DNA from: a virus
Taxonomy: Duplodnaviria > Heunggongvirae > Uroviricota > Caudoviricetes
Length of the DNA: 10,637 nucleotides
Strand: one strand, 5' to 3'
Virus record (IMG/VR): IMGVR_UViG_2529292908_000010
Location: 1 to 10,637 of that record
Each line of letters starts with the position of its first letter. The stretch's first letter is position 1. The notes below the pieces were generated by a model, which saw only the letters and a list, made by a program, of their open reading frames with translations, did no database searches and had not been told where the DNA came from. Below are positions 1 through 10,463 of this stretch, piece by piece. Made by a program: the position numbers and the translations under genes.

Positions 1-1119
1 TCAAATAACCAACTTAACCCATTCCTGACCTCGAGTATCGTTATAGCGATCGGTGGTAGCCTGGACTTTATGTCCCAGTAATGTTTTTGTATCGACACCC
101 TGTGCGCGGTACAACCGTTCTGACAGGGAGCGTTGTTCATGAAATGTTGGCGGTGTTTTTCCTGCTGGTGGAATTATTCCAGCCAGATCTCGCGCTTTGG
201 CGAAGTAATCGCTCAGGTTGTCTTTACTCATCGGTTTTGGTTGTTTCTGGTGCCTACTATGGATTAGGTATGGACTCAACATTCTGTCCCTGCATCCATC
301 AATAACTTCTTTTAACGATACCCCAATTTCATCGCATCGTAGCCTAAGAGGTAAGGCCAGACGCATTCCGGTTTTTCCTTGGGTTATATGTAGATGTCCA
401 TTCCATACATCTGAAAAACGCATGTGGCAAATGTCATCACGGCGCTGACCAGTAACAATCGCAAGAAGCATTGCGTTACGGATAAAGTGTTTTTCTGGCG
501 TTGCATTATAAATTTTTTGCCAGTCTTCCAGGGTGAGTCTGGATCTGGTCACTTTAGGGATCGGTTTACGGGTAGCCTCCGGAGGATTCCATCCAGGAGG
601 AACTTCTCCCGCATGCTGTGCTTCTTTATAAATATCAACCCATAATCCGCGATTTACTCTTGCTGTGCTGACCATGTCTTTATCCATCCACTCGTCCAGT
701 ATTAATGCAAAGTCTCTTACCTCCAGTTCTTTCAATGGGTGGTTTCCCAGGCGGGAAACCAGGTATGCAGCCATTCGCACTTTTTCTTTGTGGGTTGTAG
801 CTGCAATGTCTCCATTTTTCAGTCGCGAATCCTGTATTTTCAGATATCGATCAACCCATGCCTTTAATCTGATACCCCGACGTTTTGTTGCTGATGGACT
901 TTCATCAATTTTGCGCATGAAATATTCTGCTTCTGCTGCAGCTATTCGCTGATTGGCTGTTGCAGCGATTTTTTCTGCCTTGACTTTGTCTGTCCCAAGT
1001 CCGTGAAATTTTCCAGTCACAGGATTTTTATACTGGTAGTAAACCTTGCCAGTTCTGCGATCAAATTTTTCGTAAAGAGCTGCTACGTCAGTACTGTTTT
1101 TTCGTGGCCTCGGTGACAT
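1..1119 (-). CDS. int: Tyrosine site-specific recombinase, lambda Int family (prophage integrase)
   Basis: Complete 372-aa ORF, ATG at 1119-1117 and TAA at 3-1. Collinear with lambda Int from memory, including the HxxR box (TFHEQRSLSERLY) and C-terminal catalytic Tyr region (ATTDRYNDTRGQEW). First gene at the window edge, as at a prophage left end. Confidence 0.93.
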   Translation of the reverse strand: MSPRPRKNSTDVAALYEKFDRRTGKVYYQYKNPVTGKFHGLGTDKVKAEKIAATANQRIAAAEAEYFMRKIDESPSATKRRGIRLKAWVDRYLKIQDSRLKNGDIAATTHKEKVRMAAYLVSRLGNHPLKELEVRDFALILDEWMDKDMVSTARVNRGLWVDIYKEAQHAGEVPPGWNPPEATRKPIPKVTRSRLTLEDWQKIYNATPEKHFIRNAMLLAIVTGQRRDDICHMRFSDVWNGHLHITQGKTGMRLALPLRLRCDEIGVSLKEVIDGCRDRMLSPYLIHSRHQKQPKPMSKDNLSDYFAKARDLAGIIPPAGKTPPTFHEQRSLSERLYRAQGVDTKTLLGHKVQATTDRYNDTRGQEWVKLVI

Positions 1120-1357
1120 GGGTTAAAATCTCCTTCAGTGCGTCATCATCGCCAGTATGAATTTCCGGCGCAATTCCAGCTTCACCCGGTCCAACAAAGA
1201 CTGCGCGGCGATCTATTAGCCAGCGACCACGAATTTTTTGTGGTCTTGGTACGATGTATCCAAGTTTTCCGTATTTCACCAGGGTAGTGTTTGTTATTGG
1301 GAGACTGAACCGCTTAGGTTTCCACTCGTCGAGCGTAATCAGGTACTGTTCGCTCAT
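1088..1357 (-). CDS. xis: Excisionase (Xis-like)
   Basis: Small ORF directly upstream of int, overlapping its start by 32 nt as in lambda xis-int. N-terminus MSEQYLITLDEW resembles lambda Xis (MYLTLQEW...). ATG at 1357 has GGAG 8 nt upstream; the ORF track starts at an in-frame GTG at 1366, so the start is uncertain. Confidence 0.75.
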   Translation of the reverse strand: MSEQYLITLDEWKPKRFSLPITNTTLVKYGKLGYIVPRPQKIRGRWLIDRRAVFVGPGEAGIAPEIHTGDDDALKEILTHVTEATKKQY

Positions 1358-1418
1358 GACCATCACTCCGGAACGCGCCAGTTGCAGAATACCAACTACA
1401 ACCGGCGACGGTTGAACA

Positions 1419-3890
1419 TTAAAAATCAGCCTGACTCGGGATCAGTTTTTGCCAGATAACTGAAACGTATTTTGCCTGGTAACGGGCGTCATCAAGTGCA
1501 TTATGGCGCTCACCTTCGAATGGAATAGCCGTTCTGGCATCGAAGTCTATGGCTTTCCCCAGCTCAACGATTGTGCGTACATCGCGATCGTTGTAGTAAC
1601 GCCACGGGCAGGGGATCCCCTGCCGTTCGTATGAACGGCGCAAAATCGTGTTTTCGAAGTTGGCTCCATTTCCCCAGACCTGAACAAAAAATTCACCGGA
1701 GTTTTCGTCGATAAATTCCCGCAATTGTAACAGTGCATCATCTAACGGGATTTCATCGGTCATAATGGCAGACTGCGCTTCACGTGATTGCTTCAGCCAC
1801 CTTTTAATGACGTCACGATCAATGACTCCGCCAGCAGTTTCCAGATCGATAGTCTTACTAAATTCCGGTCCCATATCTCCGGTTTGCGGATCGAAAAATA
1901 TTGCATCTATTGAGATAATCGGGGCATCAGGATTTTTGCCCATTGTTTCAAGGTCAATCATCAGATGGTGCCACAACCTGCTGGTGGATGTGCTTTTACG
2001 ATGACCGTTCACCTTAATTAAGGGATTTGCTGTCTCGCCTATTTCATTATTGTCATTGGCATGTTGATCGCCTTCGGTGCACTCCTTGTTCGGGAGTCCG
2101 GCACTTTCTATTTCCTCTGGATCTTTTTCCCGGGCTTCATCCTGGCTTTCTTCGTTGAATGTCTCCTGGTAGGTTGCGTCACCCATCACTGCGCCACAAT
2201 CAGGGCAGTTACCACCACCAGTCTGATTGCATGCGGTACAAACTTTTTCCTCTTCCTGTTGCACGACTGGTTCAGGTTGTTTCGTTTCTGGCTCGTTTTG
2301 TAACGCATTTTGGCTGTTTTGTTCCGCTTTTTGGTCGTACTGTTCCGTTTCTGACTGGTTCTGGTGCACAGAATCGCGGGTTTCAATCCCCTTCACCCAT
2401 TTCGGATCATTCGGGTCGCTAATCCCTTCAACAAATTCACCACGTGATGCAGCGAGCAACTTATTAGCGTCAGGCTGGCTGATACTGGCTGCCTGCATAA
2501 TTTTGTTTACTTCGTCAGCGGTAACTTTTACCAGGTCTGGTTGTGCGGTCGTGTCAGATGCATCAGTATTTTGTTGTGAACCTGTGTATGTGCCGTTTTT
2601 GCGGGCAAAATATTCTTCTTTCGTGATTTCAGTTGCCCCGGCAGCCAGCGCCTTATCCAGACCAGAAAGTTTGTTTGCGCGACCGTATTTTTCGCCATCC
2701 TTGTCGGTGAAGAGGAAGTAGAACGGCCCCTCACGCTCTACAGATGGTTCGACTTCCACTTTGCATTCGGTTTTTTCGTTGTCCGGCATTGCCGTTTCCA
2801 CTGCATCAGCTTCTGGTACTGGCGACGGGAGAGTATTAGTTGTGCTCTGATTTGTTCCTTCATCTTCAAACACGCCCTTTGTAGTCAGGTATTCAGTGAT
2901 GTATTTGTTCAGCGCCACGGGATCTTTGTGAATGTCGATCGGACGTTCACGGACAAGGCCAAAAATAGTCTGACGGTCATAGCCAAGTGCTTCAGGCTGT
3001 TTGCGCATTGATGCCGAGATACGCTTCCAGTCTTCGCGGTCGTTGTCGATAACTTCATTTTTTGCCCAGCGATGGATGCTGCCGTCAATGTTTCCGGCAT
3101 CCACATCACCAGGCCAGAGAGCGTAGGCCAGTTCGTCATCCAGTGTTTTCCATGTCTGCTTGTATTCGCGATGAATGGCAGCAATGACCGGGCTGATTTT
3201 TCCTGTTGAATTTTCAGTGTGCTGTTGATTGGTTCTGGCGCGGGCGAGATCAACAACAGACGTGTATTTTCCTGTTTCCTTGCGTTCACCTTCGCGACGT
3301 TTTTTCCAGATGCGCATCTCTGCCTGAATTTCGGGCCATTTGGCACTAGGCTTACATTTATGCTTAACCCACCCGATGGCATGCAGCTTAAGCTCCGGAT
3401 ACATGGCGTTAACTTCTGGCATTTTCATCAACGCTTCAACGATATGTCCGTCGAATGTTGCCATGTCTTCCTGCAACAATTCCTGTGCGCTAATAACCAT
3501 ATCAACGGTGATGTTTTCACATGTGTCGAACTTAACCATGACAGCGTTCTGTACTTCAGGGGCCAGCTTGTCAAAAGTGACGTTCATCGGATCGGATTCA
3601 GTCTCAACCGGGACAAAGGAAGCAGACTCCTCATCCCAGCGGTTTTCCTGCATATATTCAGCATCCCATGAATCGAGGGCAGGGCGGGGTATGCCAGGTT
3701 TATCCTCGCAGACAATAAATTTATAAGCGCAGTCCTGAGCAGCCGGATAATGTTCCAGGAATTGCCAGTGAAATTTTGCTCGAGCACGGCGTTCGTCGCC
3801 AGCTTCAATGGCTGTGGCTACAGCCACAGCGCCTTCTTCCCTTGTTGCCAGTTCGTCAGGAATAGCGGCGCAAATAAAGACTTTACTCAT
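1419..3890 (-). CDS. Large early-left exonuclease (exodeoxyribonuclease VIII-like) with C-terminal DEDDh/DnaQ-like 3'-5' exonuclease domain and internal Cys4 zinc ribbon
   Basis: 823-aa ORF, ATG at 3890-3888, TAA at 1421-1419. C-terminal motifs MIDLETMG (Exo I), VWGNGANFEN (Exo II-like) and ERHNALDDARYQ (Exo III, H-x4-D). Central C-x2-C-x7-C-x2-C (CTACNQTGGGNCPDC) inside an acidic Q/E/N-rich stretch. Occupies the recE position upstream of xis-int. Family call is from motifs and memory, not a search. Confidence 0.85.
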   Translation of the reverse strand: MSKVFICAAIPDELATREEGAVAVATAIEAGDERRARAKFHWQFLEHYPAAQDCAYKFIVCEDKPGIPRPALDSWDAEYMQENRWDEESASFVPVETESDPMNVTFDKLAPEVQNAVMVKFDTCENITVDMVISAQELLQEDMATFDGHIVEALMKMPEVNAMYPELKLHAIGWVKHKCKPSAKWPEIQAEMRIWKKRREGERKETGKYTSVVDLARARTNQQHTENSTGKISPVIAAIHREYKQTWKTLDDELAYALWPGDVDAGNIDGSIHRWAKNEVIDNDREDWKRISASMRKQPEALGYDRQTIFGLVRERPIDIHKDPVALNKYITEYLTTKGVFEDEGTNQSTTNTLPSPVPEADAVETAMPDNEKTECKVEVEPSVEREGPFYFLFTDKDGEKYGRANKLSGLDKALAAGATEITKEEYFARKNGTYTGSQQNTDASDTTAQPDLVKVTADEVNKIMQAASISQPDANKLLAASRGEFVEGISDPNDPKWVKGIETRDSVHQNQSETEQYDQKAEQNSQNALQNEPETKQPEPVVQQEEEKVCTACNQTGGGNCPDCGAVMGDATYQETFNEESQDEAREKDPEEIESAGLPNKECTEGDQHANDNNEIGETANPLIKVNGHRKSTSTSRLWHHLMIDLETMGKNPDAPIISIDAIFFDPQTGDMGPEFSKTIDLETAGGVIDRDVIKRWLKQSREAQSAIMTDEIPLDDALLQLREFIDENSGEFFVQVWGNGANFENTILRRSYERQGIPCPWRYYNDRDVRTIVELGKAIDFDARTAIPFEGERHNALDDARYQAKYVSVIWQKLIPSQADF

Positions 3891-3985
3891 TTTGTTTTAA
3901 CCTCATTACAGATTTCAGGGTGAACGAATCCCTGCCATTGCTGGCATTTTTAATCCGTTGGTATGGCGTTAATATGGCTGGCGGG

Positions 3986-4174
3986 TTATCCAGCCGGTAT
4001 TGCGTTATTCAGGTTCAGCGATACTTTTTTTAACGGGAGGCATTCACCGGGGATTTTTTGTTCGTCCCTTACCTGAATGCAGGATGACTTACTGTCATAA
4101 ATTCCGGTAATCACATTTTGTGGCTCACCCGTTATAAGAAAAACGGTCATCACCAGTGCAAATGCTGAAGTCAC
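3986..4174 (-). CDS. Hypothetical small protein (62 aa), hydrophobic N-terminus
   Basis: ORF with GTG start at 4174-4172 overlapping the upstream stop (GTGA), GGAG 7 nt upstream. N-terminus MTSAFALVMTVFLITG is hydrophobic. No recognisable family; AT-rich context. Confidence 0.4.
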   Translation of the reverse strand: MTSAFALVMTVFLITGEPQNVITGIYDSKSSCIQVRDEQKIPGECLPLKKVSLNLNNAIPAG

Positions 4175-4359
4175 TGCTGTTCTCCGATAATACCAAGTTC
4201 AAGAAGGGCAATTCTGGAAAGTATGGAATTATCATTGAGAAGATAAGGTTCATATTTTCTCATCTTAATGGCATCTTCCGTAAACTCCCGGTTACTGAGC
4301 AGAACACCAATATCAAAACAACCTTCAGACGTATTAACGTTTGGTAATAACGTTTCCAT
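4171..4359 (-). CDS. Hypothetical small protein (62 aa)
   Basis: ATG at 4359-4357 with GAGGA 7 nt upstream; stop overlaps the start of the next ORF. No recognisable family. Confidence 0.45.
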   Translation of the reverse strand: METLLPNVNTSEGCFDIGVLLSNREFTEDAIKMRKYEPYLLNDNSILSRIALLELGIIGEQQ

Positions 4360-4376
4360 TATCGCGTCCTCAACAA

Positions 4377-4537
4377 TGAATTTTGTGATGCGGTGCCTGG
4401 TGCCTCCAGGTGACGTTAACCAGTTAACAATTAACGCCGGAATACAGAAGGATGCCCGTTACGCCCCGTAAAAGACCACTTTACGGTTTTAACTGTTCCG
4501 CGTGCGCATAGCCGCATTCACCGCATCACAAAATTCA
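4377..4537. repeat. Perfect 19-bp inverted repeat pair flanking a 123-bp palindrome-rich segment
   Basis: TGAATTTTGTGATGCGGTG at 4377-4395 and its exact reverse complement CACCGCATCACAAAATTCA at 4519-4537. Interior holds further palindromes (CCTGG-tgcct-CCAGG at 4396-4410; GTTAAC-cag-TTAAC at 4415-4428). Confidence 0.7.
4466..4490 (+). terminator. Terminator-like hairpin followed by TTTT (plus strand)
   Basis: CCGTAAA (4466-4472) pairs with TTTACGG (4480-4486), 7-nt loop, then TTTT at 4487-4490. Stem is AU-rich and no confident plus-strand gene lies upstream. Confidence 0.25.
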
Positions 4538-4835
4538 CTTTAAAAAGGGTGGCAGAGCAGTCACGGAGTAGAACTGATGCCACCAAATACTACACATGGG
4601 TATTGTGGCGGGGCTGTCACTTAAGCGTATGGTCAACCTGACGACCCGGTGCATTTTCTGGAGCAATGGAGGAAGCCCCAGCCATACTTACCGCCGCGCC
4701 ATTTCGCGGACTGCCACAACCGGAAGTGCACGGTCGAAGAAATTTAACGACAAGCCTTATATGCAAAGGAATCTCGCCGTGCGCTTTCGTGTTGTGTGCC
4801 TGCTTTTAACCACGTCAGGCGAGGTGGTTTCCGTC

Positions 4836-4864
4836 ATTCCCCAATAACAGGAAATCTGTATAAT
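4836..4864 (+). promoter_or_regulatory. Putative sigma70 promoter for the rightward membrane-protein gene
   Basis: Perfect -10 TATAAT at 4859-4864 preceded directly by TG; -35 is poor (ATTCCC/TTCCCC). Lies 35 bp upstream of the SD-ATG at 4898. Confidence 0.3.
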
Positions 4865-4897
4865 CTGGATATCCCCAACAACAGGAAGGTGTTTTAT

Positions 4898-5056
4898 ATG
4901 GTGGTTCAAAAGAATTGTTCAGGTACTGGTAAGCCTGCGGACAGGGCGGACATTCCGAATACCAGGAAACATATACCTGAGAAAAACATTCGACCAAAAC
5001 CATCTCCAGCTCCTTCAGAGGAGAGGGGGAACAGCAACAATCAAACAAGCAGGTGA
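4898..5056 (+). CDS. Hypothetical small hydrophilic protein (52 aa)
   Basis: ATG at 4898 with AGGAAGG 8 nt upstream; stop 7 nt before the next ATG. Pro-rich, low-complexity product and not in the track under this start, so it may instead be a leader region. Confidence 0.3.
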   Translation: MVVQKNCSGTGKPADRADIPNTRKHIPEKNIRPKPSPAPSEERGNSNNQTSR

Positions 5057-5062
5057 TGATAT

Positions 5063-5509
5063 ATGGACCGGGATGATATTCTTGACAGGGTTTTATATGG
5101 TTATTTTCTTGAACAACTATTCTCTGTAGCGACTGGTCGTCTCGATAAACTTTTCTCAGTGGTGAGTATTATCCTCGGTTCATCTGTCATTGGTGGATTT
5201 ATTCCTGAAGTTTCTGGAGTTCTCATCGTTGTGATAGCAACCGTTCAAACGATTTACGGATTCGGACAAAAGTCAGGTAACGCAATGAGAAAATCCGCAG
5301 AATATCTGCAGCTTTATGATGATGCAGAAAAATATTCCGATTCGGAATTGAAAATGCAGTTAAAGCTCCTGGAAAAAACAGATGATAATATTTGGTCGTC
5401 GCTTAAAGATATCGCAATCTTAAAAACCCAGATCAAAATAGGAATCTCCGTAGAACAACAAGAGAAACTGTCTGCAAAATCCAAATTGATGCGATTCCTT
5501 TGTGGTTAG
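5063..5509 (+). CDS. Small membrane protein, putative superinfection-exclusion / abortive-infection protein (SieB-like by architecture and position)
   Basis: 148-aa ORF, ATG at 5063 with AGGTGA 6 nt upstream. Two predicted TM helices (LFSVVSIILGSSVIGGFI; VLIVVIATVQTIYGF) then a charged helical tail. Rightward gene set among leftward early genes, as sieB is in lambda/Rac. Confidence 0.7.
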   Translation: MDRDDILDRVLYGYFLEQLFSVATGRLDKLFSVVSIILGSSVIGGFIPEVSGVLIVVIATVQTIYGFGQKSGNAMRKSAEYLQLYDDAEKYSDSELKMQLKLLEKTDDNIWSSLKDIAILKTQIKIGISVEQQEKLSAKSKLMRFLCG

Positions 5510-5607
5510 GAATACCCAGATTGTTAAAGAGCATGCCGAATGCTTACCCGTGTCCGGCGAACGTATTCCACTTCGCCTGTGGAGAACTCTTTAATTACTA
5601 ACCTTCA

Positions 5608-5760
5608 TCAGTCAGAGTTTCTTGCTAACCAGCGATGCGCGCCAGCTTCAGTTTTAAACGTTTTGCTTCTGGTATACGTCATCGCGGTAAACGTGCCGTC
5701 CTGGTTAGGGAACACACCACATACCAGAGATTCGTTGTTGCCAAGATTGAGCATATCCAT
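5608..5760 (-). CDS. Small hypothetical prophage protein (50 aa), YdaF/YdfA-like by size and position
   Basis: ATG at 5760-5758 with GAGG 5 nt upstream, TGA at 5610-5608. Product MDMLNLGNNESLVCGVFPNQDGTFTAMTYTRSKTFKTEAGAHRWLARNSD is not compositionally biased. Below the 60-aa track cutoff; translated by hand. Confidence 0.45.
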   Translation of the reverse strand: MDMLNLGNNESLVCGVFPNQDGTFTAMTYTRSKTFKTEAGAHRWLARNSD

Positions 5761-5933
5761 GTTGACCTCATTTCCCCTTAACGCCGGGTCGCGGAACTAA
5801 AAACCTGCTGCGCTGTTATACAAAGTGTTCCCGCCGTCATGTTCATACGCCTCGGGCTGGCTACTTAACCCCTGACCACTGCCGGGTAACTCTAGGTATT
5901 GCCTGGCGTTCTGTGGGACGGGGTGGTGAAGTT

Positions 5934-5963
5934 AGTTTATACAAAAATAAACTAAACAGCCAA
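5934..5963 (-). promoter_or_regulatory. Putative leftward early promoter (pL-like) with overlapping 20-bp operator-like palindrome
   Basis: Minus strand: -35 TTGGCT (5963-5958), 16-nt spacer, -10 TATAAA (5941-5936). Palindrome AGTTTA-N8-TAAACT at 5953-5934 overlaps the -10. Lies just downstream of the parE terminator. Confidence 0.4.
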
Positions 5964-5984
5964 TATGTAACTTAACGCTTTGGC

Positions 5985-6010
5985 GTAAATAACCCCCTTT
6001 TGAGAGGGGG
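5985..6010 (-). terminator. Rho-independent terminator of the repressor/toxin-antitoxin operon
   Basis: Minus strand: GC-rich stem CCCCCT/AGGGGG (6010-5993) followed by UUAUUUA (5992-5986), 16 nt after the parE stop. Confidence 0.55.
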
Positions 6011-6025
6011 CTTTGCTTCGGGGGA

Positions 6026-6313
6026 TTAAGGTGTTACAGGGAACTGTCGGCGGGCGTGAACTACGTTAACAATTTCAATGCCTGAAATTGTCACGCGGTA
6101 CAGTATTATGTAATTGGGGTGGGCTACAATTTCACGTAAACCGGGTACTCTGTCGCTTGGCGGGTATAAATACGGATGCTCAGATAATGGCAGAACGCAA
6201 GTCCTTAAGCGTTTCCACAAACGTTCTGCCGCATCTATGTCAAAACGTGCAATATAGCTGGTTATCTCATCTAGGTCGGTATCTGCGCTTTCAAGCCATA
6301 ACACGGGTAACAT
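6026..6313 (-). CDS. parE: ParE/RelE-superfamily toxin (ParE2-like)
   Basis: 95-aa ORF with RelE/ParE hallmarks (REIVAHPNYIILYRV...IEIVNVVHARR). ATG at 6313-6311 abuts the stop of the upstream antitoxin gene (TAA-ATG). Confidence 0.9.
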   Translation of the reverse strand: MLPVLWLESADTDLDEITSYIARFDIDAAERLWKRLRTCVLPLSEHPYLYPPSDRVPGLREIVAHPNYIILYRVTISGIEIVNVVHARRQFPVTP

Positions 6314-6505
6314 TTACTGTTTGCTCCGTTCCTTGCGCATTTTTGCAAAGCGTTCTGCCATTCTGCGTTCAACTTCGTCATGAGGAATAGCTGGACGTGG
6401 ATCAGCTAGGCTCGCGGCCACTTTTGCACGCAACCATTGGTTATAACTATTTTCTTGCTCGACGGTTTCAAATTCAGAAACCATTGGTGAAAGGGCTGTG
6501 TTCAT
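6314..6505 (-). CDS. paaA2: PaaA2-like antitoxin
   Basis: 63-aa ORF directly upstream of and coupled to parE, GAGG 6 nt before the ATG. Sequence (MNTALSPMVSEFETVEQENSYNQWLRAKVAASLADPRPAIPHDEVERRMAERFAKMRKERSKQ) matches my recollection of E. coli O157 PaaA2; recollection unverified. Confidence 0.8.
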   Translation of the reverse strand: MNTALSPMVSEFETVEQENSYNQWLRAKVAASLADPRPAIPHDEVERRMAERFAKMRKERSKQ

Positions 6506-6542
6506 ATGGTGAACCTCATCTTGTAAGTGCTGGTAAATCGGC

Positions 6543-6716
6543 CTAGGTAACTTTCTGTTGTGCTTCTAGCCACCTTGCAACTATACGATCCATTGCCTCT
6601 TTTTTCTCCTTCATATCTTTTAGCATTTGCTGTTGATCTTCCTCTGGAAATGCGTCAAATGTTTGAAGTAGTTCTTTTTGCCTAGGGGTTATTTTTAATA
6701 TACCCTGTGCCCTGTC
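6543..6716 (-). other. -1-frame continuation encoding the C-terminal domain of the PaaR2-like regulator
   Basis: From the slippery site the -1 frame reads DRAQGILKITPRQKELLQTFDAFPEEDQQQMLKDMKEKKEAMDRIVARWLEAQQKVT*, homologous to the C-terminal domain of the 6925..7338 gene. This frame opens only 4 codons before the slip site and has no usable start. Confidence 0.5.
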
Positions 6717-6937
6717 TTTTTTTCTTCATTTAATGGTAAGAAAAACCAATACTGAGGAAATCCCGTTACTTCAGATAGTTTATCTAGATTAGCTGCTGTA
6801 GGGCTTGAGATACCACAAACCCACCTTTGGACGGATTGTTGAGCAATACCAATTCTGCGCGCAAGTTCTGCTTGACTCCAGCCTTTTGTCAATAGAAGCA
6901 TCTTAATTCTAAGAGCACTAATTTCTAGTACGCCCAT
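6695..6937 (-). CDS. XRE-family HTH regulator, N-terminal part of a PaaR2-like regulator
   Basis: 80-aa ORF with classic XRE motif (LTKGWSQAELARRIGIAQQSVQRWVCG), first gene upstream of the antitoxin. Ends 5 codons after an A_AAA_AAG heptamer, beyond which the conserved C-terminal domain continues in the -1 frame. Confidence 0.75.
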   Translation of the reverse strand: MGVLEISALRIKMLLLTKGWSQAELARRIGIAQQSVQRWVCGISSPTAANLDKLSEVTGFPQYWFFLPLNEEKKTGHRVY

Positions 6938-7338
6938 TTGATATCTCTTGTTTTAGTATGTCTCTCGTCAGGCTCGGCGACCTTGCTGCGCCAACCAACG
7001 TGCAACAAGATCTTCCATTGCCTCTTTTTGTTTCTTAGTTCTTTTATGATCTCCTGCTGCTCATTATCAGGAAATGCACTAAATATTTGTAGCAATTCCA
7101 ATTGGTTAGGGGTTAATGCTATAGGTCTTGATGGCGGAGCTCCTGTTATGTCTTCTGGCTCAATATCAAGATAACCCCCTGGCATCCCATATGTTTGTTC
7201 AATACGTCTAGCCGCCTTTTCGCCAAACGTAGCTTTACCGCTCATTAATTGAGATAAGTAACTTTTCTCTTTAGGTGGCAAAGTCCTGTCTTTGAACCAC
7301 TCTTTGAGGCGTAAACGCCGAATCTCTTTTGTTTCCAT
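6925..7338 (-). CDS. Repressor-position HTH regulator (cI/RacR positional analogue), paralogous to the PaaR2-like regulator
   Basis: 137-aa ORF from ATG 7338 (track starts at GTG 7344), divergent from the Cro-like gene. N-terminal phage-repressor-like HTH (SYLSQLMSGKATFGEKAARRIEQTYGMPGGYLD); C-terminal domain (TPNQLELLQIFSAFPDNEQQEIIKELRNKK) homologous to the 6543..6716 segment. No SD, consistent with leaderless translation. Confidence 0.8.
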   Translation of the reverse strand: METKEIRRLRLKEWFKDRTLPPKEKSYLSQLMSGKATFGEKAARRIEQTYGMPGGYLDIEPEDITGAPPSRPIALTPNQLELLQIFSAFPDNEQQEIIKELRNKKRQWKILLHVGWRSKVAEPDERHTKTRDIKWAY

Positions 7339-7344
7339 ATACAC

Positions 7345-7373
7345 ATTATCTTTAGTAATTGCAAAATAAGCAA
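7345..7373 (-). promoter_or_regulatory. Putative pRM-like promoter giving a leaderless repressor mRNA
   Basis: Minus strand: -35 TTGCTT (7373-7368), 17-nt spacer, -10 GATAAT (7350-7345), placing the start site at or next to the A of the ATG at 7338. Motif-based only. Confidence 0.35.
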
Positions 7374-7377
7374 ATGC

Positions 7378-7407
7378 TTGACTAGTTTGTTTAGTTGTGT
7401 ATAAACT
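7378..7407 (+). promoter_or_regulatory. Putative pR-like promoter with overlapping 20-bp operator-like palindrome
   Basis: -35 TTGACT (7378-7383), 16-nt spacer, -10 TATAAA (7400-7405). Palindrome TGTTTA-N8-TAAACT at 7388-7407 overlaps the -10, 16/20 identical to the one at 5934-5953. Confidence 0.5.
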
Positions 7408-7439
7408 TTATGTGTTCTAAATGTGCAGAGATAAAAGTT

Positions 7440-7721
7440 ATGACGTTAAAGGAATTCATCAAATCATTAAAAACTGGAGAAGCCAAAAAATTTGCGGCCA
7501 ACCTTGGTGTGTCTCCGTCCTTCTTATCCCAAATGGCATCTGGAAATTCACCTGTGTCTCCTGTTCGTGCGTTGATGATAGAAGCTGAAACAGGAGGACA
7601 TGTTACAAGACGAGAGTTGAGGCCTAATGACTGGGAGCTTATATGGCCTGAATACACTGGAAGCACGCCTCCTTCACGTCACAAATATGAACTTAACTCC
7701 AAAAAGCTGATGGGGGGGTGA
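7440..7721 (+). CDS. Cro-like HTH protein (YdaS-type)
   Basis: 93 aa from ATG 7440 (upstream in-frame ATGs fall inside the promoter). Cro/YdaS-like motif KKFAANLGVSPSFLSQMASGNSPVSPVRALMIEAETGGHVTRRELRPNDWELIWPEY. Divergent from the repressor gene. Confidence 0.8.
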   Translation: MTLKEFIKSLKTGEAKKFAANLGVSPSFLSQMASGNSPVSPVRALMIEAETGGHVTRRELRPNDWELIWPEYTGSTPPSRHKYELNSKKLMGG

Positions 7722-7724
7722 TTC

Positions 7725-8162
7725 ATGAAAATCAAGCATGAGCACATCCGTATGGCGATGAATGCGTGGCTGCTTTATCCGAGAGTGGGGCGCAAAAAAA
7801 TCGCTGATGATATAGCAACAGCATATTTTGAGCTTGAAATGACTTATCCACCAATGCATGACACCTCTACGACAGAGGGTATTGGATTGAACATACAAAA
7901 TATTTTTCGCTGGCTTGAAAAGGATACGCCTGATGCTGTTGAAAAAATTCAGGCACTAATTCCGGCGATCCTGACTGTTCTTCCGCGTGAACTGCGTTAT
8001 CACCTCAGTATTTTTGACACTGTTGAGCGCCGTGCATTACTGGCGGCGCAGGAAGCGTTGAGCACGGCAATTGATGCACATGATGATGCAGTCCAGGCCG
8101 TTTACCGGAAAGCGTATTTCAGCGACGGCGGGTCATCCGGCGAGTCTGTTGTGGTGCATTGA
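7725..8162 (+). CDS. YdaT-family protein (CII-position regulator)
   Basis: 145-aa ORF starting 3 nt after the Cro-like stop, G-rich SD upstream. Size, sequence character and position match Rac YdaT-type proteins. Confidence 0.85.
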   Translation: MKIKHEHIRMAMNAWLLYPRVGRKKIADDIATAYFELEMTYPPMHDTSTTEGIGLNIQNIFRWLEKDTPDAVEKIQALIPAILTVLPRELRYHLSIFDTVERRALLAAQEALSTAIDAHDDAVQAVYRKAYFSDGGSSGESVVVH

Positions 8163-8248
8163 TATTTATGCCAGACCCCTGCTGATTCTGTTGATTGGGG
8201 AATCACAGAATATCACCAGAGGATGGTTCGTCACAAGATGAGGCAATT

Positions 8249-9262
8249 ATGGCCGCATTACCATACATGCAACTGTACATAGCTGATTACCTGGCTGACA
8301 CCATGCATTTGTCTGCAGAGGAGCACGGCGCGTATTTGTTGCTGATGTTTAATTACTGGCAAACAGGGAAACCAATACCTAAAAACAGGCTGGCAAAAAT
8401 TGCCCGTCTGACTAACGAGCGATGGGCTGATGTTGAACCATCCTTGCGGGAGTTTTTTTGCGATAACGGCGATGAATGGGTGCATCTTCGGATTGAGGAA
8501 GATCTGGCATCAGTCAGGGAAAAATTAACCAAAAAATCAGCCGCCGGAAAAGCATCTGTTCAGGCCAGAAGAAGCAGAAAGGAAGCATATGTTCAAACAA
8601 AACAAGAGAGAGATTTAACAGGTGTTCAAACAAATGTTGGTGTTGTGTTTGAACATGACGCAAACACAAAAGCAACTAATAAAGATACAGATCTAAAAGA
8701 ATTAAACCCCACACATAACGTGCGTGAGCGCGAGAGTATTCCGACCAGTGAGTTGCATGGTGCGCCGTTGCAGACAGCCGAACCTGAATACCTGGACGGC
8801 CTGAGCGAACCGATCGGGAAATTTTCGATGACCACTGTCTGGCAGCCGTCGCCGGATTTTCGACAACGGGCAGCAGTGTGGGGTATGGCTCTGCCTGAGC
8901 CGGAATTTACACCTGCTGAACTTGCCGCCTTCAGGGACTACTGGGCAGCTGAGGGGAAAGTTTTTACGCAGGTTCAGTGGGAGCAGAAATTCGCCCGTCA
9001 CGTAAATCACGTCAGGGCGCAGGTTAAACCAGTCAGCAAGGGGGTGCGTCATGCAGCAGCACCAGGTGGCACCGCATCACGGGCAGTTCGGGAAATTCGG
9101 GCAGCACGTGAGCAGTGGGAACGTGAAAACGGATTTGTCAGCGACGGAAACGGCGTGGAAGCTGTGGGAGCTCATGGGGGAGGTTTATTCAAACCGCTGG
9201 ACTCAGAAGAACGGGGCCGCACCTTCGAAGCTCTGGATTGCCCAGATTGGCGCGATGACTGA
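8249..9262 (+). CDS. Replication initiation protein (lambda O positional analogue; YdaU/DUF1376-like N-terminal domain)
   Basis: ATG at 8249 with GAGG 5 nt upstream (track starts at TTG 8195). N-terminal domain YMQLYIADYLADTMHLSAEEHGAYLLLMFNYWQTG is YdaU/DUF1376-like. Iteron-like repeats sit in the interdomain linker. The last ~70 codons overlap the P-like ORF and are low-complexity, so the true 3' end is uncertain. Confidence 0.8.
   Translation: MAALPYMQLYIADYLADTMHLSAEEHGAYLLLMFNYWQTGKPIPKNRLAKIARLTNERWADVEPSLREFFCDNGDEWVHLRIEEDLASVREKLTKKSAAGKASVQARRSRKEAYVQTKQERDLTGVQTNVGVVFEHDANTKATNKDTDLKELNPTHNVRERESIPTSELHGAPLQTAEPEYLDGLSEPIGKFSMTTVWQPSPDFRQRAAVWGMALPEPEFTPAELAAFRDYWAAEGKVFTQVQWEQKFARHVNHVRAQVKPVSKGVRHAAAPGGTASRAVREIRAAREQWERENGFVSDGNGVEAVGAHGGGLFKPLDSEERGRTFEALDCPDWRDD
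8590..8655. repeat. Iteron-like repeats (candidate replication origin) inside the O-like gene
   Basis: TGTTCAAACAAA at 8590-8601 and 8623-8634 (direct), TGTTTGAACA at 8646-8655 (inverted copy of the 10-mer core), followed by an A-rich stretch at 8661-8700. Confidence 0.4.
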
Positions 9263-9716
9263 ACAGCAAATCAGGCTGGTCTGCCGTCAGTGCATGGACC
9301 GCTGCCGGGCGGGTGAAACGTGGCCCCCGGACCTGGCTGAGTTTGTTGCGCTGATTTCGGAGAGTGGGGCAAATCCATTTGGTCTTACGGTGGATGCCGT
9401 GATGGAAGAGTACCGGCGCTGGCGCAATGAATCCTGGCGGTACGACGGGAGTGATAAATACCCGTGGCCACAGCCTGTGCTGTACCACATTTGCCTCGAG
9501 ATGCGCACCAGAGGGATTGAACGTCAGATGACTGAAAGTGAGCTGAAACGACTTGCAGAACGACTGTTGACCAAATGGGCAAAGAATGTTGGTAACGGCA
9601 TGAGTGTTCCGCCAGTGCGACGACAACTGGAAGGGCCAAAACACCCGCCAGGGCCAACGCCAATTGAGTTACTGAAACAGGAATATGAGCGCCGGAAAGC
9701 GGCTGGTTTTGTCTGA
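9051..9716 (+). CDS. Lambda P-like replication protein (helicase loader)
   Basis: 221-aa ORF, ATG at 9051 with AGGGGG SD. Collinear with lambda P from memory (WPPDLAEFVAL vs PSPGQFVAWC; YPWPQPVLYH...ELKRLAERLL vs YPWKSNAHYW...ELRRKAADEL). Start uncertain; internal ATG at 9174 is possible. Confidence 0.8.
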   Translation: MQQHQVAPHHGQFGKFGQHVSSGNVKTDLSATETAWKLWELMGEVYSNRWTQKNGAAPSKLWIAQIGAMTEQQIRLVCRQCMDRCRAGETWPPDLAEFVALISESGANPFGLTVDAVMEEYRRWRNESWRYDGSDKYPWPQPVLYHICLEMRTRGIERQMTESELKRLAERLLTKWAKNVGNGMSVPPVRRQLEGPKHPPGPTPIELLKQEYERRKAAGFV

Positions 9717-9749
9717 ATTTGAGAAATGATTTTGTCGGAGGAAATTTTA

Positions 9750-10463
9750 ATGGAAACCGTTTTTGACGCACTGAAAGCACTGAAAAGAGCCTCTTCACAG
9801 GAGGTGTCGGCCCGCCTTGGAATCAGCCGCGAAGATGCTGTCAACGAGCTGTGGAAGCTGAAACGCCGTGGTGAAGCAGATAACAAGGGGTCGATGTGGT
9901 GGCTGACGATTGAGGCAACTGAAATGGTCACAAAAACCACTGCGGAGATGCTGATTAACTCAATTGAACAGCATGGTCCTCAGTCGGCTGACGAACTGGC
10001 GTTAATGTTCGGGATTACCTCCCGCCGGGCGAATTCAACGCTGGCAATGGCAATAAGCAAAGGTCGTCTGATTCGAGTAAATCAGAACGGTAAATTTCGT
10101 TACTGCCTGTCGGGCGATAATTTACCAGCAGAGCCGAAAGCTGCATCGGTAACGGAAACTGCTGGTAAAGCCTTTCCTCAGACAGCAGGTGTTGCGTTAC
10201 CAGTCCGGGAAGCGGAAACACAGGAAGAAATTAAAACTGAAAGTGTGGCGGTCACAGTGCAGTCACAGCCGTCGTTCACCAGAAAGCATCCGGATAGTCT
10301 GATTTTACCATCGCTGCATGTGGCTAACCGCGAACTGCGCCGGGCAAAAGGTCAGGTTCAGAAGTGGGAGCGAGTCTGTGCTGCGCTGCGTGAGCTGAAC
10401 AAGCACCAGGATATTGTTCGACAGATTGTCGATTCCTCCAGTCGTATTGTGTCGGAAAAGTGA
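9750..10463 (+). CDS. Hypothetical protein with two winged-helix-like segments
   Basis: 237 aa from ATG 9750 with GGAGG 8 nt upstream (track start 9726 has no SD). Two HTH-like segments ([28 protein letters not shown]; [32 protein letters not shown]). Sits directly after the P-like gene. Confidence 0.75.

What the first reader, a model, noticed from the sequence alone, without database searches (positions are those of the whole stretch)
1419..3890. Exonuclease in the recE position carries a DEDDh 3'-5' nuclease domain and has no adjacent annealase
The C-terminal 180 residues carry DnaQ-like motifs (DLETMG, H-x4-D in ERHNALDDA) rather than the PD-(D/E)XK fold of RecE or lambda Exo. A 3'-5' nuclease has the wrong polarity to make the 3' tails an annealase needs, and no recT or bet sits between this gene and xis (52-bp gap). 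The protein may therefore not act in recombination at all; host-nuclease antagonism or DNA-end processing are alternatives. The N-terminal ~430 residues are unassigned.
Basis: partly seen in the sequence, partly recalled or inferred. Interest (0 to 1): 0.5.

Follow-up and report, generated by a model that had tools for sequence, protein, structure and literature searches.

The report
Prophage exonuclease with swapped nuclease domain
This is the intact form of the E. coli prophage gene ydfE: the non-catalytic front part of the RecE recombination nuclease joined to a T4 DexA-like 3'-5' exonuclease, with no partner annealing protein. It is very common and already annotated, but its function has never been tested.

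Summary
ORF 1419-3890(-) encodes 823 aa. Residues 641-813 form a DEDDh 3'-5' exonuclease domain (Pfam PF16473, E=1e-60; the AlphaFold model is closest to T4 DexA). The gene is followed after 52 bp by xis and int. No annealase or RecBCD inhibitor lies in the early-left operon.

The N-terminus is not unassigned. The gene is an intact ydfE (Qin prophage). Residues 246-625 are homologous to RecE 271-602, and the homology stops exactly at RecE's nuclease boundary.

Relatives show a cassette swap on one scaffold. Versions with the RecE-type nuclease always have recT next (3/3). DEDDh versions never do (0/11).

The domain's DNA is in 75% of complete E. coli genomes. A 54%-identical stand-alone homologue sits between ssb and abc2 in the phage epsilon34 recombination module. 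Phage mEp460, which carries the gene, has no annotated annealase and is Chi-rich.

Most likely the protein is an early-lytic trimmer of 3' DNA ends that works with host RecBCD/RecA. This is inferred.

This allele carries four private changes at near-invariant positions, including the Exo II Asp (D746E), so its activity may be weakened.

It is known and annotated but uncharacterised, and of modest interest.

The parts
1419..3890 (-). Intact ydfE-type gene, 823 aa: a RecE/YdfE scaffold plus a C-terminal DEDDh exonuclease. It is the last gene of the early-left operon before xis-int.
   Evidence: ORF listing and translation. It matches phrog_2082 over its full length. PGAP names relatives '3'-5' exonuclease' or 'exonuclease'. 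An identical protein, P0001, carries precomputed PF27430 + PF16473 + PF27432.
3156..3890 (-). aa 1-245: YdfE_N module. The folded alpha/beta plus helical part is aa 1-204. It has no informative structural relative.
2856..3155 (-). aa 246-345: conserved helical module (the YdfE_C region). It is shared with RecE and with every scaffold relative.
   Evidence: BLASTP to K-12 RecE. NF007259 partial match, aa 246-625 to profile 271-602. phmmer hits in 30 or more representatives. AlphaFold helices, pLDDT above 90.
2580..2738 (-). aa 385-437: small beta-hairpin plus helix domain (GPFYF...GRANK).
   Evidence: AlphaFold pLDDT 81-89. The consensus is conserved in alignment A1.
2016..2480 (-). aa 471-625: acidic, Gln-rich linker shared with RecE (LLAASRGEF...DPNDPKWVKGI). 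It ends at the cassette junction.
   Evidence: BLASTP to RecE 453-591. Nucleotide homology of the window and of L006 to Rac both stop at the same Rac coordinate, recE codon ~590.
2196..2240 (-). CxxC-x7-CxxC zinc-ribbon-like motif (C551, C554, C562, C565), conserved in RecE.
   Evidence: Read directly from the sequence. It aligns with RecE CNACGQTGGDNCPDCG.
1452..1970 (-). aa 641-813: DEDDh (DexA-like, PF16473) 3'-5' exonuclease domain.
   Evidence: Pfam E=1e-60. PDB profile hit 8kel at E=2.9e-22. AlphaFold pLDDT 93 with Foldseek to DexA at E=2.5e-11.
1947..1955 (-). Exo I motif, D646-L-E648.
   Evidence: The family columns have D in 80 of 81 and E in 77 of 81 sequences.
1653..1655 (-). Exo II position, codon 746. 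It is GAA (Glu) here and GAC (Asp) in most relatives.
   Evidence: D is present in 78 of 81 family representatives and 104 of 120 close E. coli clusters.
1488..1505 (-). Exo III motif, H796-x4-D801.
   Evidence: H is present in 81 of 81 and D in 79 of 81 sequences.
1800..1907 (-). Three further private substitutions at near-invariant positions: G662D (1905-1907), T694V (1809-1811) and W697R (1800-1802).
   Evidence: The chance that all four private changes fall in the 36 of 175 most conserved positions is P=0.0016.
1367..1418 (-). 52-bp spacer between the gene's stop codon and xis. It holds no ORF.
1088..1366 (-). Excisionase gene.
   Evidence: Pfam Exc. Annotated as excisionase in relatives.
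1..1119 (-). Lambda-type integrase gene. In relatives the prophage sits beside potC.
   Evidence: Pfam Arm-DNA-bind_1 plus Phage_integrase. Context.
3986..4359 (-). ydfD (DUF1482) and dicB, immediately upstream in the same operon.
   Evidence: Pfam. The order is the same as in K-12 Qin.
4547..4598 (-). DicF small RNA, upstream in the operon.
   Evidence: Rfam RF00039, 62 bits.
1980..1987 (+). Chi octamer GCTGGTGG inside the coding region. A second copy lies at 164-171 (+).

Best explanation
**What the gene is (shown).** It is the intact form of ydfE. The protein has two halves.
- Residues 1 to about 625 are a non-catalytic scaffold: YdfE_N, a helical module, a small beta domain, and an acidic linker with a zinc ribbon. 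The part from 246 to 625 is homologous to the 'unknown-function' N-terminal region of RecE.
- Residues 641-813 are a T4 DexA-like DEDDh 3'-5' exonuclease. They occupy the place where RecE has its PD-(D/E)XK 5'-3' nuclease.

**Genetic setting (shown).** Natural relatives show a clean cassette exchange at RecE codon ~590. The exchange pairs the RecE-type nuclease with recT, or the DEDDh domain with no annealase.

**How it most likely works (inferred).**
- The gene is transcribed only from the early-left operon, after dicF-dicB-ydfD, during induction or infection.
- The scaffold brings the nuclease to linear DNA ends or recombination intermediates.
- The DEDDh domain removes nucleotides from free 3'-OH ends, such as 3' tails or non-homologous 3' flaps.
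- The phage encodes neither an annealase nor a RecBCD inhibitor, and it carries Chi sites. The trimmed ends are therefore handed to host RecBCD/RecA rather than to a phage single-strand-annealing pathway.

**This particular allele (inferred).** The Exo II Asp is Glu (D746E), and three other near-invariant residues are changed. Catalysis is probably weakened.
For: **Domain identity**
- Pfam PF16473 at E=1e-60.
- PDB profile hit to DexA at E=2.9e-22.
- Foldseek to DexA, TM 0.75.
- DexA is a DNA 3'-5' exonuclease that contributes to double-strand-break repair in T4 intron homing (PMC12153337).

**Scaffold homology to RecE**
- BLASTP 1e-55 over query aa 262-625 against RecE 278-591.
- NF007259 partial match, 255 bits.
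- Nucleotide homology of both the window and a Rac-like prophage (L006) to K-12 Rac ends at the same Rac base, recE codon ~590.

**Combinatorial modules**
- RecE_N plus DEDDh (P0123/L006).
- YdfE_N plus PD-(D/E)XK (P0138/L007, and L013 at 86-94% N-terminal identity).
- YdfE scaffold plus a candidate Rad52-like domain.

**The annealase tracks the nuclease type**
- RecT lies immediately downstream in 3 of 3 PD-(D/E)XK loci and in 0 of 11 DEDDh loci.

**The family belongs in recombination modules**
- Epsilon34 gp34, 54% identical, lies in the order erf-ssb-gp34-abc2.
- Zheng et al. 2025 list DnaQ-like nucleases as recombination-module members.

**Dependence on host RecBCD**
- No annealase, Gam or Abc2 in the window's operon.
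- None is annotated anywhere in the viable phage mEp460_ev081, which carries a 90%-identical gene.
- That phage has 9 Chi sites, 7 in the active orientation, against a mean of 1.85 for permuted octamers.
- The window has 2 Chi sites, both in that orientation.
- Lambdoid phages without a recombination module are Chi-rich and helped by RecBCD (PMC12315714).

**Selection and expression**
- dN/dS is 0.1-0.3 per domain.
- The 188-aa domain is nearly invariant across mosaic prophages.
- Its DNA is present in 4069 of 5426 complete E. coli genomes.
- No promoter-like site was found on the gene's strand.
Against: - No experiment exists for any YdfE-type protein. Literature searches found none.
- 3'-5' exonucleases usually inhibit homologous recombination, as Zheng et al. 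note.
- RecBCD has no obvious need for extra 3' trimming on cos-type phage DNA.
- The Pfam family is named after an RNA exonuclease.
- The allele in the window has D746E plus G662D, T694V and W697R, so it may be inactive.
- The Chi evidence rests on one complete phage and a 10.6-kb window.
Confidence: 0.4

Rival explanations
1. **Defence or competitor exclusion ('HREX'-like).** The DexA-like domain selectively digests hydroxymethylcytosine-modified DNA of T-even phages and so protects the lysogen or the induced cell.
For: - Kang et al. 2025 (PMC12153337) report that a stand-alone E. coli DexA homologue, EcD, digests 5hmC DNA but not plain dsDNA.
- The same paper reports that plasmid-borne EcD protects against T4.
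- The domain is found in 75% of complete E. coli genomes, with up to 7 copies, and is very strongly conserved.
Against: - The gene sits at the far end of the repressed early-left operon, downstream of the toxic dicB gene. No promoter-like site lies on its strand, so it should be silent in lysogens.
- The DexA residues proposed for 5hmC recognition are not kept: W152 aligns with Y766, and D169 aligns with a non-acidic position.
- The tetramer residue D90, which is Ala in EcD, aligns with Asp718 here.
- There is no PADLOC match.
- EcD is a ~190-aa stand-alone protein, not a scaffold fusion.
Confidence: 0.15
2. **This allele is catalytically dead or decaying.** The ORF persists only because the scaffold has its own role or because inactivation is recent. 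Under this reading the nuclease does nothing in this prophage.
For: - There are four private non-synonymous changes, all at positions at least 87% conserved in the family. They include the Exo II Asp, D746E. The chance of this is P=0.0016.
- The 100%-identical copy in strain SW070917 lies in a decayed prophage, with IS4 in the gene's 5' end and several pseudogenes.
- Scaffold-only or non-nuclease relatives exist ('RecE-2' in PMC12315714).
Against: - The ORF is full length.
- The same four-change allele circulates in about 354 records. These include an intact-looking prophage at a different site, ompW, in L017.
- Asp to Glu keeps the carboxylate and may keep some activity.
- On this branch there are 7 synonymous against 4 non-synonymous changes, which is not neutral decay.
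Confidence: 0.18
3. **Nucleotide scavenging.** As in one role of T4 DexA, the enzyme degrades host or broken DNA to mononucleotides to feed phage replication.
For: - DexA's role in host-DNA scavenging is reported in PMC12153337.
- A stand-alone homologue in phiSTEC1575-Stx2k lies near a 5'-deoxynucleotidase gene.
Against: - Temperate lambdoid phages are not known to degrade the host chromosome.
- No endonuclease partner is present to create ends.
- Fusion to a RecE scaffold is unexplained by this role.
Confidence: 0.1
4. **RNA 3'-5' exonuclease.** The protein trims or degrades transcripts, for example the operon's own 3' end or int mRNA, or DicF precursors.
For: - The Pfam family is named after the M. 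tuberculosis exoribonuclease Rv2179c.
- The next structural neighbours are RNase T, oligoribonuclease and ERI.
- The gene lies between dicF and xis-int.
Against: - The closest solved and characterised relative is the DNA exonuclease DexA.
- The scaffold is shared with a DNA recombination nuclease.
- RNase T also acts on DNA.
Confidence: 0.07
5. **Host-nuclease antagonist.** The protein binds and blocks RecBCD or another host nuclease.
For: - The position corresponds to where gam and abc2 lie in other lambdoid phages.
- The large scaffold has no known function.
Against: - Phages of this type carry Chi sites, which implies that RecBCD stays active.
Confidence: 0.05

Closest known systems
RecE (exonuclease VIII) of the Rac prophage, with RecT
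   Same: - Same operon position: after kil/dicB-type genes and before xis-int.
- Residues 246-625 are homologous to RecE 271-602, including the zinc-ribbon-like CxxC...CxxC motif and the LLAASRGEF...DPNDPKWVKGI block.
- Some relatives (L005, L006, L011) even carry the RecE-type N-terminus, PF06630.
   Different: - The PD-(D/E)XK 5'-3' nuclease domain is absent and replaced by a DEDDh domain from RecE codon ~590 onward.
- No recT, ralR or rcbA follows.
- The first 245 residues are a different module (YdfE_N).
- The whole-protein NF007259 score is 255 bits against a cut-off of 1269.
T4 DexA (exonuclease A; PDB 8kel/8ken)
   Same: - It is the best solved-structure match by profile (E=2.9e-22) and by fold (TM 0.75).
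- It shares the same DEDDh catalytic set and a TxxWW motif.
- It is a phage 3'-5' DNA exonuclease involved in double-strand-break repair (PMC12153337).
   Different: - About 20% identity.
- DexA is a 227-aa stand-alone protein with extra loops.
- The window's allele has Glu at the position of DexA D119, Tyr at W152, and VxxRW in place of TxxWW.
Stand-alone PF16473 exonucleases of temperate phages: epsilon34 gp34, the phiSTEC1575-Stx2k '3'-5' exonuclease', E. coli EcD
   Same: - 54-57% identity to the C-terminal domain.
- Located in early-left operons.
- Epsilon34 gp34 sits inside a canonical erf-ssb-abc2 recombination module.
- This is the 'DnaQ-like nuclease' class of Zheng et al. 2025.
   Different: - These proteins are ~180-190 aa with no scaffold.
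- Epsilon34 has an annealase, an SSB and an anti-RecBCD protein. The window has none.
K-12 Qin prophage ydfE (pseudogene b1577)
   Same: - 98% identical over aa 1-256.
- Same gene order, dicF-dicB-ydfD-ydfE-int.
   Different: The K-12 copy is cut by IS2E after codon ~256. It therefore lacks the linker and the nuclease, while the window has the full gene.
Lambda Exo/Bet/Gam (Red) module
   Same: Same region of a lambdoid early-left operon, and the same expected time of expression.
   Different: No sequence or fold relationship. The nuclease polarity is opposite, and there is no annealase and no RecBCD inhibitor.

Membership tests
RecE / exodeoxyribonuclease VIII (NCBIfam NF007259) | Whole-protein score above the curated cut-off. 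| tested here: not met
   255 bits against a cut-off of 1269. Only profile positions 271-602 match.
RecE / exodeoxyribonuclease VIII (NCBIfam NF007259) | C-terminal PD-(D/E)XK nuclease domain (RecE ~600-866). | tested here: not met
   BLASTP to K-12 RecE stops at RecE residue 591. There is no Pfam PD-(D/E)XK, DUF3799 or YqaJ hit. Local phmmer with RecE 600-866 gives no hit for this protein type.
RecE / exodeoxyribonuclease VIII (NCBIfam NF007259) | Homology of the non-catalytic N-terminal/linker region. | tested here: met
   Query aa 262-625 align to RecE 278-591 at E=1e-55 and 37% identity, rising to about 75% in the last 150 residues.
RecE / exodeoxyribonuclease VIII (NCBIfam NF007259) | A partner annealase gene (recT) immediately downstream. 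| tested here: not met
   A 52-bp gap is followed directly by xis. There is no RecT tblastn hit in the window or in 10 other DEDDh-type loci.
RecE / exodeoxyribonuclease VIII (NCBIfam NF007259) | 5'-3' dsDNA exonuclease activity. | not testable with these tools
   This needs a biochemical assay.
PF16473 (Rv2179c-like / DexA-like) DEDDh exonucleases | Pfam model above the gathering score, matched end to end. | tested here: met
   204.9 bits against 27. Residues 641-813 cover profile positions 1-177 of 177.
PF16473 (Rv2179c-like / DexA-like) DEDDh exonucleases | Exo I motif D-x-E. | tested here: met
   D646 and E648 lie in invariant columns.
PF16473 (Rv2179c-like / DexA-like) DEDDh exonucleases | Exo II catalytic Asp (DexA D119). 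| tested here: not met
   Glu746 (GAA) in this allele. Asp is present in 78 of 81 family representatives and 104 of 120 close E. coli clusters.
PF16473 (Rv2179c-like / DexA-like) DEDDh exonucleases | Exo III motif H-x4-D. | tested here: met
   H796 and D801.
PF16473 (Rv2179c-like / DexA-like) DEDDh exonucleases | RNase H-like DEDD fold. | tested here: met
   AlphaFold model pLDDT 93. Foldseek gives DexA at E=2.5e-11 and TM 0.75, followed by RNase T and REXO2/oligoribonuclease.
PF16473 (Rv2179c-like / DexA-like) DEDDh exonucleases | 3'-5' exonuclease activity and the substrate (DNA or RNA). | not testable with these tools
   This needs assays on labelled substrates.
YdfE (Pfam PF27430 YdfE_N + PF27432 YdfE_C) | Matches to both YdfE models, and identity to K-12 ydfE. 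| tested here: met
   Precomputed Pfam assignments for the identical protein P0001, with the family names given. 98% identity to K-12 ydfE over 256 aa. The local Pfam copy lacks these two models.
HREX / EcD-type anti-phage exonuclease (Kang et al. 2025) | Conservation of the proposed 5hmC-recognition residues (DexA W152, D169). | tested here: inconclusive
   W152 aligns with Y766, which is still aromatic. D169 aligns near A780, with D782 and D784 close by. The alignment is uncertain in this loop.
HREX / EcD-type anti-phage exonuclease (Kang et al. 2025) | Loss of the tetramer-forming residue (DexA D90 is Ala in EcD). | tested here: not met
   The aligned residue is Asp718.
HREX / EcD-type anti-phage exonuclease (Kang et al. 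2025) | Expression in the uninfected lysogen. | tested here: inconclusive
   No sigma-70-like site lies on the minus strand in 1-8200. The gene lies downstream of dicB in a repressed operon. A consensus scan is weak evidence.
HREX / EcD-type anti-phage exonuclease (Kang et al. 2025) | Protection against T-even phages. | not testable with these tools
   This needs plaque assays.
Single-strand annealing proteins (RecT, Bet, Erf, Rad52/Sak) hidden in the N-terminal part | Sequence or fold match to an annealase family. | tested here: not met

The most novel reading that the evidence does not exclude
The RecE/YdfE N-terminal region may be a general docking platform for DNA ends or for a host factor. 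Lambdoid phages would plug alternative effector cassettes onto it:
- a 5'-3' PD-(D/E)XK nuclease with RecT;
- a DexA-like 3'-5' exonuclease with no annealase;
- or a fused Rad52-like annealase.

Under this reading the DEDDh version marks a distinct strategy that needs no phage annealase. Chi-rich phages would use the enzyme to trim 3' ends so that host RecBCD/RecA does their recombination. This would give the long-unexplained 600-residue N-terminus of RecE a function that can be studied through natural domain swaps.
Probability: 0.2. Interest if true: 0.6.

Novelty: new member of a known kind. Interest (0 to 1): 0.32.

Why it matters
The gene's DEDDh-domain DNA is present in about three quarters of complete E. 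coli genomes, often in several copies, yet no YdfE-type protein has been studied experimentally.

Two points give it some value:
- **RecE's N-terminal region.** The clean natural swap of nuclease cassettes on a shared scaffold offers a handle on what this region, whose function is still unknown, actually does.
- **Chi-rich phages without a recombination module.** The strict link 'DEDDh means no annealase' fits the recently described class of lambdoid phages that depend on host RecBCD. It suggests that these phages are not entirely without recombination-related functions.

For annotation, the practical points are:
- the gene is neither 'exonuclease VIII' nor a recombineering-type exonuclease;
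- K-12 ydfE is its IS2-truncated remnant;
- a sub-lineage, including this window, carries a probably weakened active site.

Tried and rejected
**Led nowhere**
- PADLOC defence models: no hit for the protein.
- Literature searches for Rv2179c plus prophage, for PF16473, and for ydfE function: nothing relevant.
- The ISG20/TONDO preprint (PMC13344964) concerns a different DEDDh subfamily, and its 'RecE' hits were word-start artefacts.
- The search for related loci with the broad alignment A1 failed because no stretch was conserved enough. The narrower alignment A2 returned only 5 Escherichia/Shigella loci, so the context survey stays small at 14 loci.
- The supplementary tables of Zheng et al. 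were not held. I could not see how they classify mEp460.
- The EcD sequence (HAK9828821.1) could not be retrieved, so I made no direct comparison.

**Considered and rejected or left open**
- An annealase hidden in the N-terminus was rejected (see the membership tests).
- The third-class relatives (P0134, P0142 and others) end in a domain with a KKSLTDAxKKALSxLGF motif. hhalign to human RAD52 gives E=0.015 over 115 collinear columns but a probability of only 3%. HMMER against the PDB and Pfam finds nothing. I record this as a lead, not a finding.
- The Rv2179c structure itself did not appear in the PDB profile search at E below 1e-3.


Full report
**1. What is in the window**

The 10.6-kb window is the left arm and immunity/replication region of a Qin/Rac-like lambdoid prophage of E. 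coli.

| Window position (strand) | Feature |
|---|---|
| 1-1119 (-) | integrase |
| 1088-1366 (-) | excisionase |
| 1419-3890 (-) | target ORF |
| 3986-4174 (-) | ydfD (DUF1482) |
| 4171-4359 (-) | dicB |
| 4547-4598 (-) | DicF small RNA |
| 5608-5760 (-) | DUF1391 gene |
| 6026-6505 (-) | ParE/PaaA2 toxin-antitoxin pair |
| 6695-7344 (-) | HTH regulators |
| 7725-10463 (+) | rightward ydaT-like, DUF1376/DnaT (O-like), P-like and DUF1627 genes |

Close relatives sit beside potC in E. coli chromosomes.

**2.

- The ORF encodes 823 aa.
- Residues 641-813 match Pfam PF16473 (Rv2179c-like 3'-5' exoribonuclease domain) over the whole model, at E=1e-60.
- A profile built from 49 family members finds T4 DexA (8kel/8ken) in the PDB at E=2.9e-22.
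- An AlphaFold2 model of the domain (pLDDT 93) is closest to DexA (Foldseek E=2.5e-11, TM 0.75). RNase T and oligoribonuclease/REXO2 follow.
Both lie in invariant family columns.
- No PD-(D/E)XK or YqaJ model matches.
- The gene's stop codon is followed by 52 bp and then xis.
- No ORF of the leftward operon matches an annealase or a RecBCD inhibitor. RecT tblastn is negative.

**3. The N-terminus is not unassigned**

- The protein matches phrog_2082 over its full length.
- An identical database protein carries precomputed Pfam families PF27430 and PF27432 in addition to PF16473. These are named YdfE_N and YdfE_C.
- The first 256 residues are 98% identical to the K-12 Qin pseudogene ydfE. That copy is cut by IS2E and sits in the same order, dicF-dicB-ydfD-ydfE-int. 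The window therefore holds an intact ydfE.
- Residues 262-625 align to K-12 RecE residues 278-591 (BLASTP E=1e-55). The match to NF007259 covers profile positions 271-602 only.
- The aligned stretch includes a CxxC-x7-CxxC motif and the block LLAASRGEF..DPNDPKWVKGI.
[quoted passage not shown] That N-terminal domain is dispensable for basic recombination but improves linear-linear recombination (PMC11611040).

**4. A cassette swap at a fixed junction**

An exhaustive representative search gave 10,063 relatives at E up to 1e-3. Local segment mapping showed that the modules combine freely.

| Example | Architecture | What follows the gene |
|---|---|---|
| P0123 (locus L006) | RecE-type N-terminus plus the DEDDh domain, in a true Rac-like prophage (ydaT, sieB, kilR, ydaE) | Directly xis/int; no recT, ralR or rcbA |
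| P0138 (L007); L013 (N-terminus 86-94% identical to the window) | YdfE scaffold plus a PD-(D/E)XK domain | An overlapping RecT-family gene |

- Nucleotide identity between L006 and K-12 Rac runs for 4 kb at 96% and stops at Rac recE codon ~590. The window's homology to Rac stops at the very same base.
- Across the loci in hand, RecT follows the nuclease gene in 3 of 3 PD-(D/E)XK loci (K-12 Rac, L007, L013).
- RecT follows in 0 of 11 DEDDh loci: the window, L001, L003, L005, L006, L011, L012, L014, L015, L016 and L017.
- The annealase therefore travels with the 5'-3' nuclease, not with the scaffold.
- A third class (P0134, P0142, P0147, P0172, P0212) ends in a ~290-aa domain with the motif KKSLTDAxKKALSxLGFSADVWLGLYD. 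It aligns collinearly with the human RAD52 core (hhalign E=0.015), but with low probability. I treat this as a lead only.
- These may be the 'RecE-2' proteins 'lacking a nuclease domain' mentioned by Zheng et al..

**5. How common it is, and what is already known**

- The DNA of the DEDDh domain is present in 4069 of 5426 complete E. coli genomes. The median is one copy per genome and the maximum is seven.
- One protein cluster alone has 23,183 members.
- PGAP names it '3'-5' exonuclease' or 'exonuclease'.
- The viable phage mEp460_ev081 has a 90%-identical copy in the same gene order.
- Zheng, Casjens, Davidson, Amundsen and Smith (Genome Res 2025, PMC12315714) already reported several relevant points:
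  - this is 'curious', because such nucleases usually inhibit recombination;
  - 22% of lambdoid phages have no recombination module, are rich in Chi sites, and are helped by RecBCD.
- I confirmed that their example, epsilon34 gp34, is 54% identical to the window's domain (E=2e-67). It lies in the order erf-ssb-gp34-abc2.
- Kang et al. (NAR 2025, PMC12153337) solved the DexA structure. [quoted passage not shown] They also report that a stand-alone E. coli homologue, EcD, digests 5hmC DNA and protects against T4 when borne on a plasmid.
- I found no study of ydfE itself.

**6. Context that bears on mechanism**

- The whole mEp460_ev081 genome has no annotated annealase, Gam or Abc2, and it does have RusA.
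- It carries 9 Chi octamers, 7 of them on the strand read by RecBCD entering from the right end. The mean for the 168 permutations of the octamer is 1.85.
- The window has 2 Chi sites, both in that orientation, and one lies inside the nuclease coding region.
- No promoter-like site lies on the gene's strand anywhere in 1-8200. Expression should therefore depend on the early-left promoter.
- dN/dS against two relatives is 0.1-0.3 in every domain.
- The 188-residue nuclease domain differs by 0-2 residues among prophages whose N-termini are unrelated.

**7. A peculiarity of this allele**

- Within the DEDDh core, the window's copy has four private amino-acid changes relative to four other copies. 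All four fall at positions that are 87-97% conserved in 80 diverse family members:
  - G662D
  - T694V
  - W697R
  - D746E, the Exo II catalytic Asp, which corresponds to DexA D119
- The chance that four changes all fall in the 36 of 175 most conserved positions is 0.0016.
- The allele is not a sequencing accident:
  - 12 of the 120 closest protein clusters share it;
  - about 354 genome records have at least 99% identical domain DNA;
  - it occurs in an intact-looking prophage at ompW (L017);
  - it also occurs in a decayed prophage at potC that has IS4 in the gene's 5' end.
- Whether Glu746 supports catalysis was not testable here.

**8. Interpretation**

*Shown*
- The architecture.
- The homology to RecE's non-catalytic part.
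- The DexA-like fold.
- The junction of the swap.
- The link between nuclease type and annealase.
- The absence of annealase and anti-RecBCD genes.
- The presence of Chi sites.

*Inferred*
- The protein is made early in lytic growth.
- The scaffold places it on linear DNA or recombination intermediates.
- It trims 3' ends, and the products are used by host RecBCD/RecA.

I give this reading about 0.4. The rivals are:

| Rival | Confidence | Main objection |
|---|---|---|
| HREX-like defence | 0.15 | Operon position, non-conserved recognition residues, retained D90 equivalent |
| Inactive allele or scaffold-only role | 0.18 | — |
| Nucleotide scavenging | 0.10 | — |
| RNA 3' exonuclease | 0.07 | — |
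| Host-nuclease antagonist | 0.05 | No support |

**9. Verdict**

- The N-terminus is assignable, and the gene is a genuine partial homologue of recE.
- The suggestion that it has nothing to do with recombination is weakened.
- The gene family is ubiquitous and annotated, and its nuclease class has already been noted in the literature.
- It is therefore a further member of a known but uncharacterised kind. Interest is modest. It rests mainly on the natural cassette swap, which is a handle on the unknown function of the RecE N-terminus.

Noticed in passing
window 1653-1655, 1800-1802, 1809-1811, 1905-1907: This allele of the nuclease domain has four private substitutions at near-invariant family positions: D746E, W697R, T694V and G662D. 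The same four-change allele circulates in about 354 E. coli genome records and in prophages at two different integration sites.
   Followed up: partly
window 4547-4598 (-): A DicF small RNA (Rfam RF00039, 62 bits) lies upstream of dicB. This shows that the window is a Qin-type dicF-dicB-ydfD-ydfE operon.
   Followed up: yes
window 164-171 and 1980-1987 (+): There are two Chi octamers, both in the orientation read by RecBCD entering from the right end, and one lies inside the nuclease coding region. The density is host-like at 0.19 per kb.
   Followed up: partly
window 6026-6505 (-), hairpin 5993-6010: A ParE-toxin/PaaA2-antitoxin pair sits inside the leftward operon. It is followed by a G+C-rich hairpin that looks like a terminator on both strands.
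   Followed up: no
window 5063-5509 (+): A 148-aa ORF lies antisense to the leftward operon (phrog_6315, unknown function; no Pfam or PADLOC hit). It may be a moron gene. The same ORF is annotated as hypothetical in strain SW070917.
   Followed up: no
window 8195-9262 and 9051-9716 (+): The O-like (DUF1376 + DnaT) and P-like ORFs overlap by 212 nt. They match consecutive parts of a single 482-aa PHROG (phrog_15931). This could be a frameshift here or a fused gene in relatives.
   Followed up: no
window 9726-10463 (+): The DUF1627 protein gives a weak PADLOC hit to SWIM_XIII (E=2.5e-5).
   Followed up: no
L008 6001-8226 (P0142); also P0134, P0147, P0172, P0212: These relatives have the same YdfE scaffold but end in a ~290-aa domain instead of a nuclease. 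Its KKSLTDAxKKALSxLGF motif aligns collinearly with the RAD52 core (hhalign E=0.015). In L008 the gene is followed by a Sipho_Gp157 gene. This is a candidate scaffold-annealase fusion.
   Followed up: partly
L006 6001-8418, versus L002 (K-12 Rac): A Rac-like prophage is 96% identical to K-12 Rac for 4 kb up to recE codon ~590. Beyond that point the DEDDh domain and a different xis/int replace the RecE nuclease, recT, ralR and rcbA.
   Followed up: yes
P0122 (901 aa): One representative carries a RecE-type N-terminal segment and the YdfE_N module in tandem ahead of the DEDDh domain. The two N-terminal modules are therefore additive, not strict alternatives.
   Followed up: no
L009 10079-10999 (K-12 ydfE): The K-12 'ydfE' pseudogene is the IS2E-truncated first 256 codons of this exonuclease gene. 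The K-12 annotation therefore gives no hint that the full gene encodes a nuclease.
   Followed up: yes
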